DNA of 64,000 nucleotides from Escherichia coli (GCF_051903065.1 NZ_CP178438.1), one strand, 5' to 3'. Counted from the stretch's first letter, positions 59,324 through 61,148 are shown. The notes: generated from the sequence alone by a model not told the origin. A program made the numbers and translations.

Positions 59324-60121
59324 TTAGAACATTACCTTATGACCGTACTGCTCAAGAATGCCTTTCACGCGTTCCATGGTTTCTTTCTTCGGTGGTTTAA
59401 CACCATCGAGTTTGTATTCTTCACCCATCGCCACCCATTTGTGTTTGCCCAGTTCGTGGTAGGGGAGAAGTTCGATTTTCTCAACGTTACCCATATCACG
59501 GGTAAATTCACCGAGGCGATGCGCTGAATCGTCATCGTCAGACCAGCCTGGGACAACAACGTAGCGGATCCACACCTTCACATTTTTGTTCGCCAGATAT
59601 TTAGCGAACTCCAGCGTGCGGTGGTTGGAAACTCCAACCAGATTTTGGTGGATCTCGTCGTTCATCTGTTTGAGATCGAGCATTACCAGGTCGGTTACTT
59701 CCAGCAGTTCATCAATCACCGGATCGTAACGACGAACAAAACCGTTGGTATCCAGACAGGTATGAATGCCTTCTTTTTTACAGGCGCGGAACCAGTCACG
59801 AACAAACTCAGCTTGCAGGATTGCTTCACCGCCGGATGCGGTAACGCCGCCGCCGGAAGCGTTCATAAAGTGGCGATAGGTCACCACTTCCTTCATCAAA
59901 TCTTCAACGGTAACTTCTTTACCGCCATGCGTGTCCCAGGTGTCGCGGTTATGACAATACAGGCAGCGCATCAGGCAGCCCTGGAAAAAGGTGATAAAGC
60001 GAATACCTGGGCCGTCTACGGTTCCACAGGATTCAAAGGAGTGAATGCGACCAATAACTGACTTGGTAGCCCCCGCCGTAGCGGTATTTTCTGTTGTATT
60101 ACAATTAGTTAAATTACTCAT
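59324..60121 (-). CDS. pflA: Pyruvate formate-lyase activating enzyme PflA (radical SAM); start uncertain (ATG at 60121 gives 265 aa; the known mature N-terminus SVIGRIH begins at 60061)
   Basis: Radical-SAM CxxxCxxC motif ([10 protein letters not shown]); sequence matches PflA; no ATG at the position corresponding to the 246-aa form (codon is AAG). Confidence 0.92.
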
Positions 60122-60152
60122 ATCGCTTCAATTGGCTCTAGTTAACTCTGGT

Positions 60153-61148
60153 TTATGGACGCATTATGGACATTCCTGACACCGGGTTAAGAGTCACTGC
60201 ATCTTGTAAGAAATCCGGTGCAAAGTGTGCGTAGGTCATAGTTTGCTGAATGTTAGAATGACCCAGGATGCGCTGCAATGTGATTATGTTACCTCCATTC
60301 ATTATAAAATGTGTGGCAAATGTATGCCTCAAAACATGCACTGCCTGTCCGTCAGGTAAATCGGGTTTTACTTCCCTGAGAGCGTTGCGCACTTTGTAGT
60401 AACTGGCATTAAAAAGCCTGCCTGAATTTTTGGTCTTGATCCGTTTAATCAGGTCCTGCGAAACGGGAATTGTCCTGCGCTTTCCGTTTTTAGTTTTCAT
60501 AAACGTAACCATCTGGTTAATGATGTGTTCAGCTTTTAAATTAGACACTTCACTCCAGCGTCCACCAGTAGAAAGGCAGACCAGAGTCGCATTTAATTCA
60601 TCACCATCGAGCATGGATAACAGCCGTGTAATCTCTTCACTGGACAAAAAAGCCATTTCTGTAACAGCTTCACGTAATCGCTTAACCTCACGGAACGGGT
60701 TGTGAGAATGGTATTCACCGGCATCAATTAACTTGGTGAACATCCCGCTCATTATTGCCAGATGCCGATTTACGCTGGCTGGTTTTAGACCATCGTTCAT
60801 CATTACAACGCGATAATCAGTTATCGTTTTCTTTGTTAGCTGGTCAGCTCTGGACACTCCCATTTCTGCAAATTTGGCGATTATTGTCGTCAAACGCCCC
60901 CGTTCAATATCTCCACGCTCATGTGATTTTCCGTGATATATCCACCATCTGCCTAACAACTCTGTAAGAGTTCGTCGGTCGGCTGGCTTCTCCAGCCACT
61001 CTTTGTTGTGGTAGTTAACCAGTACATGACGTTCGAATGCTTGAGCTTCACCTTTAGTTTTAAATTTCCGCCTGATACGTTTTCCATCTGCACCCTGCGG
61101 TCTGACGTCCACTTCATAACGACCATCATCGAGCTTTTTAATAGACAT
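60153..61148 (-). CDS. int: Tyrosine recombinase / phage integrase (P2 Int-like)
   Basis: 331 aa; N-terminal MSIKKLDDGRYEVDVRP and C-terminal catalytic region HVLRHTFATHF...LGHSNIQQTMTYAHFAP (R-H-R-Y). Confidence 0.88.
   Translation of the reverse strand: MSIKKLDDGRYEVDVRPQGADGKRIRRKFKTKGEAQAFERHVLVNYHNKEWLEKPADRRTLTELLGRWWIYHGKSHERGDIERGRLTTIIAKFAEMGVSRADQLTKKTITDYRVVMMNDGLKPASVNRHLAIMSGMFTKLIDAGEYHSHNPFREVKRLREAVTEMAFLSSEEITRLLSMLDGDELNATLVCLSTGGRWSEVSNLKAEHIINQMVTFMKTKNGKRRTIPVSQDLIKRIKTKNSGRLFNASYYKVRNALREVKPDLPDGQAVHVLRHTFATHFIMNGGNIITLQRILGHSNIQQTMTYAHFAPDFLQDAVTLNPVSGMSIMRP

What the first reader, a model, noticed from the sequence alone, without database searches (positions are those of the whole stretch)
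60061..60155. Prophage end 31 bp upstream of the pflA ORF; pflA start ambiguous
The integrase stop (60153-60155) lies 31 bp from the in-frame ATG at 60121 of the pflA ORF. The codon just before the known PflA N-terminus (SVIGRIH, starting 60061) is AAG, not ATG, so the 246-aa form has no ATG here, and the AT-rich 19-codon extension ([20 protein letters not shown]) may be used or may be phage-derived. The att core should lie in this interval, and pflA expression may depend on the prophage junction.
Basis: partly seen in the sequence, partly recalled or inferred. Interest (0 to 1): 0.5.

Follow-up and report, generated by a model that had tools for sequence, protein, structure and literature searches.

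The report
P2-like prophage junction inside pflA
A P2-type prophage has recombined with the first codons of the host gene pflA and replaced its promoter, ribosome-binding site and start codon with a phage-supplied 20-codon leader; the insertion site itself is already published, so this is a tidy but largely known case.

Summary
On the minus strand the integrase stops at 60155-60153. An in-frame ATG lies 31 nt downstream at 60121. The codon before SVIGRIH is AAG (60064-60062).

Comparison with an empty site (K-12), both junctions of a near-identical lysogen and four free phage genomes gives a 13-bp identical core, GTCAGTTATTGGT, at 60062-60050. Everything from 60063 upward is phage DNA, including the whole 20-codon leader. 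Phage DNA therefore reaches into the pflA ORF, well past the integrase stop. Non-lysogens have ATG and unrelated upstream sequence.

404 of 5426 complete E. coli genomes carry this junction. The site matches the published integration point of the P2-like phages PhiD145 and PhiD160.

Thirteen diverged junctions from about ten genera all keep an in-frame ATG 54-60 nt upstream with no in-frame stop. Relatives that integrate upstream of pyrE do not keep an open frame. Salmonella carries a fossil of the same junction next to sopD2.

Most likely reading: PflA is made as a 265-aa phage-host chimera. Its transcription probably comes from the prophage C-int operon; this is inferred and unproven.

Interest is low to moderate.

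The parts
61242..61553 (-). C-type immunity repressor gene (103 aa, HTH), first gene of the prophage lysogenic operon
   Evidence: ORF. RefSeq annotates the equivalent gene of lysogen XJ34 as an HTH protein directly upstream of int. Phage records annotate it as C protein or immunity repressor. Weak RstR-family repressor hit.
60153..61148 (-). P2-type tyrosine integrase (331 aa), PhiD145 site class
   Evidence: ORF. Pfam PF24624 Int_N and PF00589 on the identical protein P0001. 95-99% DNA identity to int of sequenced Peduovirus phages.
60153..60171 (-). Two direct GTCCATAA repeats 11 nt apart that overlap the int stop; candidate Int arm-type binding sites of the P arm
   Evidence: Repeat finder. 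Conserved as (A/G)TGTCCATA(T)AATGTCCA in all 13 junctions. Complement fits the published P2-type arm consensus tgTGGaCa (PMC3448106). Binding itself is inferred.
60163..60190 (-). Sigma-70-like promoter match TTAACC-16-CATAAT inside the int 3' end, overlapping the arm repeats; possible pflA promoter
   Evidence: 9 of 12 matches; the number of such sites in the region is not above the shuffled expectation. A lead only.
60122..60152 (-). 31-nt phage spacer between the int stop and the leader ATG; contains the in-frame TGA (60130-60128) and only a weak SD-like GAAG (60129-60126)
   Evidence: SD pairing energy about -2 kcal/mol against -6.4 for the native K-12 pflA site.
60062..60121 (-). Phage-derived leader: codons 1-20 ([20 protein letters not shown]) of the chimeric pflA ORF, part of the attP P arm
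   Evidence: Present in the attP of free phages S164, vB_YpM_46, NC_070906 and P2_4A7b (identical in vB_YpM_46 and P2_4A7b; one A/G difference in the other two), where it reads on as ...SVIGDIF*. Absent from K-12. Open and in frame in 13 diverged junctions.
60050..60062 (.). 13-bp identical core GTCAGTTATTGGT (minus strand), within which strand exchange must occur; it covers the last base of codon 1 to codon 5 of native pflA
   Evidence: Three-way comparison of attB, the pflB-side junction, the int-side junction and attP. The 13-nt att repeat ACCGATTACTGAC reported for the Pectobacterium prophage phiPa2 is the reverse complement of that genus's version of the same core (PMC6385640).
59324..60061 (-). 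Host part of pflA (codon 2 to stop)
   Evidence: 100% identical to PDB 3C8F/3CB8. PflA equivalog NF008356, 523 bits against a cut-off of 375, protein residues 21-265 on model positions 2-246.
59324..60121 (-). Chimeric 265-aa pflA ORF (phage leader plus host body)
   Evidence: RefSeq annotates the same 265-aa protein (WP_000067979.1) as pflA in lysogen XJ34. The exact sequence is on record on at least 1000 contigs.

Best explanation
The interval is the integrase-proximal arm (P arm) of the attachment site of a PhiD145-type P2-like prophage, fused to pflA.

Shown by comparison:
- Int-mediated recombination took place within a 13-bp identity (GTCAGTTATTGGT, 60062-60050) at the very start of pflA.
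- The native pflA promoter, SD, ATG and four codons stay on the pflB side, about 33 kb away, as a dead 8-codon stub (MSVIGDIF*).
- The body of pflA is joined to phage DNA.
- The phage arm changes the native ATG to AAG and supplies an in-frame ATG 60 nt upstream.
- That open frame is kept in every pflA-integrating lineage examined.

Inferred:
- Translation starts at 60121 and PflA is made as a 265-aa chimera with a 20-residue phage-encoded N-terminal extension.
- Transcription comes from the prophage. The likeliest source is read-through of the constitutive lysogenic C-int operon (promoter Pc), because its terminator sits on the other arm of attP and moves to the pflB side on integration. A promoter within the int 3' end is the alternative.
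- The phage keeps the leader open because destroying PflA, the only efficient activator of pyruvate formate-lyase, would handicap its lysogen.
For: Anatomy of the junction:
- attB, both prophage junctions and attP define the core and show that the leader is phage DNA.
- The gene order ogr-attP-int-C-cox and a complete 33-kb P2-like prophage between pflB and pflA are seen in a lysogen that is 99.9% identical to the window over the 901-nt junction query.
- 404 of 5426 complete E. coli genomes carry the junction, and pflA was not flagged as a pseudogene in the lysogen rows listed.

Selection for an open, in-frame leader:
- 13 junctions were compared: Escherichia, Citrobacter, Trabulsiella, two Salmonella fossils, Dickeya, Pectobacterium, two Serratia, Rahnella, two Yersinia and one MAG.
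- Their leaders are 43-78% identical at the DNA level (11 leaders of 60 nt compared). All have an ATG at -60 or -54 and no in-frame stop.
- The other two frames carry stops in 23 of 26 cases.
- The length difference between lineages is 6 nt, a multiple of three.
- Shuffled leaders stay open with probability only 0.15-0.43 each.
- Control: integrase relatives (int 69-71% identical) that sit upstream of pyrE have stops in all three frames of the homologous arm.

Function of the chimera:
- Salmonella has pflB-sopD2-(decayed int)-leader-pflA. It has no native ATG and no other canonical in-frame start, in two diverged alleles.

Transcription:
- No terminator-like site is predicted on the minus strand between C and pflA.
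- The only strong hairpin followed by a T run lies on the ogr-side arm.
[quoted passage not shown] That int follows it in the same operon is established P2 biology, cited from my own knowledge.
Against: - No expression data were available: no RNA-seq, 5'-RACE or proteomics.
- The leader ATG has only a weak SD in every lineage (-2 to -4 kcal/mol).
- Most phage arms carry a strong SD-like G run 3-6 nt upstream of the old start position. That position is still ATG in Rahnella and Serratia proteamaculans, so a second start near it cannot be excluded.
- The promoter-like site in the int 3' end is no better than chance.
- Parts of the leader are conserved at the DNA level (TTGT...ACAA, repeats spaced 33 nt apart). 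This probably reflects protein-binding sites in attP, and openness could partly ride on that.
- The structure prediction of the chimera failed (mean pLDDT 44.5), so nothing can be said about how the extension sits on the enzyme.
- The window shows only one prophage end. The other end was read in a near-identical lysogen, not in this genome.
Confidence: 0.8

Rival explanations
1. PflA is still made in about the native length. Translation would start at a non-canonical codon at or near the old start (AAG 60064 or ATT 60055), driven by the phage-supplied G-run SD-like element (GGCGGGGG, 60078-60071). The upstream ATG would be irrelevant.
For: - The G run pairs strongly with the anti-SD (-6 to -12 kcal/mol) and lies 3-6 nt from codon -1 in most phage arms.
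- Two lineages (Rahnella, Serratia proteamaculans) keep ATG at that position.
Against: - AAG is not an established bacterial start codon (my knowledge).
- ATT lies about 14 nt from the G run, too far.
- The Salmonella fossils have lost the G run (0 to -1.5 kcal/mol) yet keep the leader ATG and an open frame.
- This reading gives no reason for the leader frame to stay open in 13 diverged lineages.
Confidence: 0.07
2. Insertional inactivation: pflA is silent or non-functional in lysogens, and the 265-aa ORF is an annotation artefact.
For: - The native promoter, SD and ATG are removed.
- The replacement SD is weak.
- No expression data are available.
Against: - The junction occurs in 7.4% of complete E. 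coli genomes, with pflA 98-100% conserved and annotated intact.
- The exact chimeric protein is seen on at least 1000 contigs, and also in Klebsiella.
- The leader frame is preserved across about ten genera, but not in arms that target a non-coding site.
- Salmonella retains only the chimeric form.
Confidence: 0.06
3. The open leader frame is a by-product of DNA-level constraints on the attP arm (Int arm sites, IHF or Cox sites), or it encodes a small phage peptide. In either case it is not selected to keep pflA translatable.
For: - Free phages carry a 27-codon ORF across attP.
- Conserved DNA motifs and repeats lie within the leader.
- Variability by codon position is only mildly biased to the third position (0.27, 0.41, 0.46).
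Against: - Homologous arms of the pyrE-site relatives share the same arm architecture but have stops in all frames.
- The indel between lineages preserves the frame.
- The fossil in Salmonella has lost int and phage function but keeps the ORF.
Confidence: 0.07

Closest known systems
P2-like coliphages PhiD145 and PhiD160 (integration site listed at MG1655 coordinate 950293; Nilsson et al. 2011, PMC3448106 Table 1, which cites Karlsson 2006 and Mandali 2010)
   Same: Same chromosomal site. 950293 in the older MG1655 numbering falls about 10 nt inside pflA, within the 13-bp core. The genome organisation is P2-type (ogr-attP-int-C-cox) and the arm repeats are P2-type.
   Different: I could not compare sequence directly, because the PhiD145 records are not in the collections and the primary papers are not held. 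None of the text I could read mentions the replacement of the pflA start codon or the leader.
Prophage PhiECA29 of Pectobacterium atrosepticum SCRI1043 and phiPa2 of strain 21A
   Same: Table 1 of PMC3448106 lists PhiECA29 as sharing the PhiD145 site. Its integrase (P0028, 74% identical to the window's) sits immediately upstream of a 265-aa pflA with an in-frame 20-codon leader. The published 13-nt att repeat is the Pectobacterium version of the core.
   Different: The leader sequence differs (MNNSNTCFSTEKPDIAEAVK). There are 40 nt, not 31, between the int stop and the ATG.
Phage 21 and e14 at icd, and other prophages that carry a substitute end for the gene they enter (Campbell's rule; my knowledge)
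   Same: The core lies inside a coding sequence, and the phage brings a replacement so that an intact ORF is restored after integration.
   Different: Those cases replace the 3' end. Here the 5' end is replaced, so the phage must also supply the start codon, the ribosome-binding site and the transcription.
Phage P2 attP (int-P arm-core-P' arm-ogr) and its Pc-C-int lysogenic operon
   Same: The layout is the same. Arm-type direct repeats lie on both sides and overlap the end of int. A terminator lies next to ogr on the far arm.
   Different: P2 integrates between genes with a 27-bp core (my knowledge). Here the core is 13 bp and lies in a coding sequence.
SopE-phi and Fels-2 (P2-like Salmonella phages; SopE-phi carries a type III effector gene)
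   Same: This is a precedent for a P2-like phage bringing an effector gene into Salmonella. It bears on the sopD2-pflA fossil noticed here.
   Different: Those phages integrate in ssrA and are intact. At pflA in Salmonella only a decayed int and the junction remain.

Membership tests
P2-like (Peduovirus) prophage, PhiD145 integration class | Tyrosine integrase with a P2-type N-terminal arm-binding domain and a catalytic domain | tested here: met
   PF24624 (Int_N) and PF00589 are precomputed for the identical protein P0001. The DNA is 95-99% identical to int of sequenced Peduovirus genomes.
P2-like (Peduovirus) prophage, PhiD145 integration class | Gene order ogr - attP - int - C - cox with the P2 late genes | tested here: met
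   The window shows int, C and a cox-side early region. The full order is seen in the near-identical lysogen XJ34 and in free phages.
P2-like (Peduovirus) prophage, PhiD145 integration class | P2-type arm repeats (consensus tgTGGaCa) on both sides of the core | tested here: met
   GTCCATAA occurs twice at 60153-60171. GTCCACA, GACCACA and ATCCACA lie on the ogr-side arm of attP. The consensus is taken from PMC3448106. Int binding was not tested.
P2-like (Peduovirus) prophage, PhiD145 integration class | Integration at the PhiD145/PhiD160 site (MG1655 950293) | tested here: met
   The core maps to codons 1-5 of pflA. pflA lies at 950340-951080 in NC_000913.3. The paper uses the older numbering, shown by its ileY coordinate. 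The 777-nt offset for this region is from my own knowledge. Independent support: PhiECA29 is listed with the same site, and its int lies next to pflA.
P2-like (Peduovirus) prophage, PhiD145 integration class | Sequence identity to the PhiD145 int and attP themselves | not testable with these tools
   AM158280, AM159077 and AJ298559 are not in the searchable collections. Karlsson 2006 and Mandali 2010 are not held.
Prophage insertion that restores the target gene | Core inside the coding sequence, and an intact in-frame ORF after integration | tested here: met
Prophage insertion that restores the target gene | The restored gene is expressed and functional | not testable with these tools
   This is only inferred, from frame conservation, the pyrE-site controls, prevalence and the Salmonella fossil.
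PflA (pyruvate formate-lyase 1 activating enzyme, radical SAM) | Match to the equivalog model above its cut-off, and the CX3CX2C cluster motif | tested here: met
   NF008356 scores 523 bits against a cut-off of 375, covering residues 21-265. Those residues are 100% identical to PDB 3C8F. The motif C-LMR-C-LY-C can be read in the sequence.
Structured RNA element in the leader (terminator, attenuator or a known RNA family) | Stable or covarying structure, or an Rfam match | tested here: not met
   No Rfam match up to E = 1. Folding z-scores are -0.27 to -0.85. The C-run/G-run hairpin is paired in 70% of cells against 65% in shuffles, with 20 of 500 shuffles as high.

The most novel reading that the evidence does not exclude
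The phage-supplied leader is a selected, portable 5' end for pflA. It would wire activation of pyruvate formate-lyase, and so mixed-acid fermentation, to the prophage's lysogeny operon in about 7% of E. coli and in lysogens of about ten enterobacterial genera. In Salmonella it has been fixed as a fossil: the PflA N-terminus in the three assemblies seen is phage-encoded, and the effector gene sopD2 sits in the remnant of such a P2-like prophage. I found no accessible paper describing either point.
Probability: 0.5. Interest if true: 0.5.

Novelty: already known. Interest (0 to 1): 0.3.

Why it matters
For annotation: the 265-aa PflA in these genomes is a real phage-host chimera, not a miscalled start, and the prophage boundary lies inside the ORF.

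For biology: this is a clean example of a temperate phage entering the 5' end of a core metabolic gene and supplying the replacement start. That makes expression of an anaerobic enzyme activator depend on prophage DNA.

The frame conservation across genera, and the Salmonella fossil next to sopD2, make the idea testable with simple genetics and with existing proteomics data.

The integration site and the general principle are already established, so the gain in knowledge is modest.

Tried and rejected
- **Normal pflA leader in non-lysogens.** Rejected. K-12 and about 5000 other genomes diverge upstream of 60065 and have ATG.
- **Intrinsic terminator or structured RNA between int and pflA.** None is predicted on the minus strand. 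There is no Rfam hit. Folding is no better than shuffles.
- **Conserved C-run/G-run hairpin just upstream of the core.** The covariation test was inconclusive. I dropped it as a functional claim.
- **Dedicated promoter in the int 3' end.** One 9-of-12 match exists, but the count in the region is not above the shuffled expectation. I kept it only as an alternative.
- **AlphaFold2 of the chimera, to see whether the leader is disordered.** Mean pLDDT was 44.5 with an 11-sequence alignment, so the model is uninformative. I did not repeat it.
- **Literature.** Searches combining pflA with P2-like, prophage, attB or sopD2 found nothing relevant; the sopD2+pflA hits I opened were 'pFLAG' false matches. 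The primary papers on PhiD145 (Karlsson 2006, Mandali 2010) are not held.

Full report
**1. What the sequence shows**

On the minus strand the window reads as follows:
- a C-type repressor gene, 61553-61242;
- a 331-aa integrase gene, 61148-60153, with stop TAA at 60155-60153;
- 31 nt of spacer;
- a 265-codon ORF, 60121-59324.

Residues 21-265 of that ORF are 100% identical to crystallised E. coli PflA (PDB 3C8F/3CB8). They match the PflA equivalog model over its positions 2-246. Codon 20 is AAG (60064-60062). An in-frame TGA at 60130-60128 closes the frame upstream, and no other ATG, GTG or TTG lies in frame.

**2. Where the junction lies**

A megablast of the junction against 5426 complete E. 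coli genomes found it whole in 404 of them, or 7.4%. A 163-nt query over the leader found the same number. In the remaining genomes homology begins only at window position 60065, and the single mismatch is at 60063.

I then read four kinds of sequence:
- an empty site (K-12 type, L002);
- both junctions of lysogen XJ34 (L001, 99.9% identical to the window over the 901-nt junction query), in which a complete 33-kb P2-like prophage lies between pflB and pflA;
- attP in four free phage genomes.

The aligned sequences are:
- attB: caATGTCAGTTATTGGTcgcatt
- attP: ccAAGTCAGTTATTGGTgacatt
- int-side junction: ccAAGTCAGTTATTGGTcgcatt
- pflB-side junction: caATGTCAGTTATTGGTgacattttttga

The identical core is the 13 bp GTCAGTTATTGGT, window 60062-60050. 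Everything from 60063 upward is phage DNA, including the A that turns ATG into AAG and the whole 20-codon leader. In the free phages the same leader runs across attP as a 27-codon ORF, ...ATKSVIGDIF*. On the pflB side the native promoter region, SD and ATG remain and lead into an 8-codon stub.

So the prophage does not end at the integrase stop. It ends inside the pflA ORF. The core touches only the lower edge of the flagged interval.

**3. What kind of element this is**

The gene order is ogr-attP-int-C-cox with P2 late genes. The integrase carries the P2-type Int_N and catalytic domains. Two GTCCATAA repeats spaced 11 nt apart overlap the int stop at 60153-60171. Related (G/A)(T/A)CCACA motifs lie on the ogr-side arm. 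Both fit the published P2-type arm consensus tgTGGaCa (PMC3448106).

Table 1 of that paper places the P2-like phages PhiD145 and PhiD160 at MG1655 coordinate 950293, and lists PhiECA29 of Pectobacterium atrosepticum SCRI1043 as sharing that site. The paper uses the older MG1655 numbering: its ileY coordinate is 1978 nt lower than in NC_000913.3. pflA lies at 950340-951080 in NC_000913.3. With the 777-nt offset that applies to this region (my own knowledge), 950293 falls about 10 nt inside pflA, within the core.

Two independent points agree:
- The SCRI1043 integrase (P0028, 74% identical to the window's) lies directly upstream of a 265-aa pflA.
- A prophage survey lists a 13-nt att repeat, ACCGATTACTGAC, for the same locus in strain 21A. 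This is the reverse complement of the Pectobacterium version of the core (PMC6385640).

The integration site is therefore already known. I could not read the two primary papers. I cannot say whether they describe the start-codon replacement.

**4. Is the leader just arm DNA, or is it kept open for pflA?**

I collected int-pflA junctions from one genome per species and by exact look-ups. Thirteen distinct junctions came from Escherichia, Citrobacter, Trabulsiella, Salmonella (two fossil alleles), Dickeya, Pectobacterium, Serratia (two), Rahnella, Yersinia (two) and an uncultured enterobacterium (MAG).

Their properties:
- Leaders are 43-78% identical at the DNA level (11 leaders of 60 nt compared), with a median of 63%.
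- All have an ATG 60 nt before pflA codon 2, or 54 nt in Serratia.
- None has an in-frame stop.
- The two other frames carry stops in 23 of 26 cases.
- Shuffled versions of each leader stay open with probability only 0.15-0.43.
- The lineages are related, so the product of these probabilities (5e-8) overstates the significance.
- The only length difference, 6 nt, preserves the frame.

As a control I used relatives with int 69-71% identical and the same arm layout that integrate upstream of pyrE in non-coding DNA. These have stops in all three frames of the homologous arm.

Variation by codon position is 0.27, 0.41 and 0.46. This suggests the peptide sequence matters little; what is kept is openness and frame. 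Eleven of the thirteen junctions have AAG or AAA at the old start. Rahnella and Serratia proteamaculans keep ATG there.

In several lineages the last leader codons, ACC AAG, form an inverted repeat with the TTGGT of pflA codons 4-5. I read this as the phage's core-type Int site, which would explain why the phage arm does not match the ATG. This is an inference.

**5. Natural evidence that the chimera works**

In three Salmonella enterica assemblies the order is pflB, then sopD2 (SopD2 equivalog, 660 bits against a cut-off of 386), then about 570 bp, then pflA. The roughly 300 nt ending in the pflA start are 70% identical to the window's int 3' end, arm and leader (E about 1e-28 to 1e-30). They translate as an integrase pseudogene with internal stops.

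The two Salmonella alleles begin MSNLNDCIKKENTAAAAEKKPIIGRIH and MSNLTDCITNESVAVTADKKPVIGRIH. These are homologous to the window's [27 protein letters not shown]. They have AAG at the old start and no other canonical in-frame start.

In these genomes the only way to make PflA is from the phage-derived ATG. The native pflB-pflA spacer is gone: only 76 nt separate pflB from the end of sopD2. How general this is across Salmonella was not established here.

**6. How it most likely works**

Shown:
- the recombination geometry;
- the removal of the native promoter, SD and ATG;
- the phage origin of the leader;
- its conservation as an open, in-frame start.

Inferred:
- Translation starts at 60121 and gives a 265-aa protein.
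- Transcription comes from the prophage.

No terminator-like site is predicted on the minus strand between the C gene and pflA. The one strong hairpin followed by a T run in attP lies next to ogr, on the arm that moves to the pflB side on integration. [quoted passage not shown] Read-through from Pc is therefore the simplest source of pflA mRNA. A promoter-like TTAACC-16-CATAAT at 60190-60163 overlaps the arm repeats and is the alternative, but such matches are no more frequent here than in shuffles. The Salmonella fossil lacks C and Pc, which shows that some promoter closer to pflA can suffice there.

**7. Weak points**

- The leader ATG has a poor SD in every lineage, -2 to -4 kcal/mol against -6.4 for native K-12.
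- Most phage arms carry a strong SD-like G run just before the old start position. A minor second start there cannot be excluded, especially in the two lineages that keep ATG.
- The small C-run/G-run hairpin formed by that element did not pass a covariation test.
- Folding of the region is unremarkable, and no Rfam family matches.
- An AlphaFold2 model of the chimera was too poor to use.

**8. Verdict**

It is wrong in detail about where the prophage ends and where the core lies.

The feature belongs to a published integration class (PhiD145-type P2-like phages in pflA) and to a well-known kind of phage-host arrangement. It has the less common twist that the 5' end, not the 3' end, is replaced.

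The frame-conservation analysis and the Salmonella sopD2-pflA fossil are the only parts I could not find described. They are worth a short follow-up but do not change the classification.

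Noticed in passing
L087 894-2600 and L089 860-2600 (Salmonella enterica contigs AANRCF010000043.1 and ABIQHF010000003.1): In Salmonella the pflB-pflA spacer holds sopD2 followed by a decayed PhiD145-type integrase pseudogene, the phage arm and a homologous 20-codon leader fused to pflA. This looks like the fossil of a P2-like prophage that may have delivered sopD2 and fixed a phage-encoded N-terminus on PflA. How general it is across Salmonella was not established.
   Followed up: partly
L012 3450-3690, L013 3460-3700, L098 2480-2700: Integrase relatives (int 69-71% identical) in Erwinia psidii, Yersinia pekkanenii and Hafnia paralvei integrate just upstream of pyrE, at a site ending ...GAGTCGCCTTTTTT. 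The arm layout is the same but there is no open leader. I used them as a control. The change of site within this integrase clade was not analysed further.
   Followed up: partly
window 60071-60086 (minus strand ACCGCTACGGCGGGGG): A C-rich/G-rich inverted repeat within the last leader codons recurs in most phage arms, with some compensatory changes. Its G run is also a strong SD-like sequence 3-6 nt before the old pflA start. It has decayed in the Salmonella fossils. Its role is unknown; it could be an Int core site, an SD for an ancestral ATG, or an RNA hairpin.
   Followed up: partly
window 60106-60112 and 60139-60145: The direct repeat TTAACTA (minus strand) occurs twice, 33 nt apart (three helical turns), flanking the leader ATG. 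The palindrome TTGTAATACAA lies within the leader. These may be binding sites for IHF or Cox in attP.
   Followed up: no
window 59115-59323, compared with L002 2244-3367: K-12 has ycaK and ycaN between pflA and ycaM. The window, like lysogen XJ34, goes from pflA to ycaM within about 200 nt, and RefSeq marks a gene fragment there in XJ34. This is a deletion or alternative arrangement next to the prophage site.
   Followed up: no
L014 and L015 3490-3800 (Rahnella bonaserana, R. woolbedingensis): Integrases about 68% identical to the window's are followed not by a host gene but by an ORF with a zinc-finger, primase-like start (CPKCGGKDRFRFDD). This suggests the integrase has been borrowed by a satellite-like or P4-like element.
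   Followed up: no
L007 and L021 (Escherichia albertii contig NZ_BBMY01000003.1, 57436-73465): Two integrase genes lie within about 10 kb on one contig. One is 100% identical to the window's and sits next to pflA. The other is 56% identical. This may be a tandem or neighbouring second element.
   Followed up: no
L089 2501 (protein P0147): The source annotation starts this Salmonella PflA at an ATT codon (258 aa). An in-frame ATG 21 nt upstream would give the same 265-aa form as the other alleles, so this is probably a miscalled start.
   Followed up: yes
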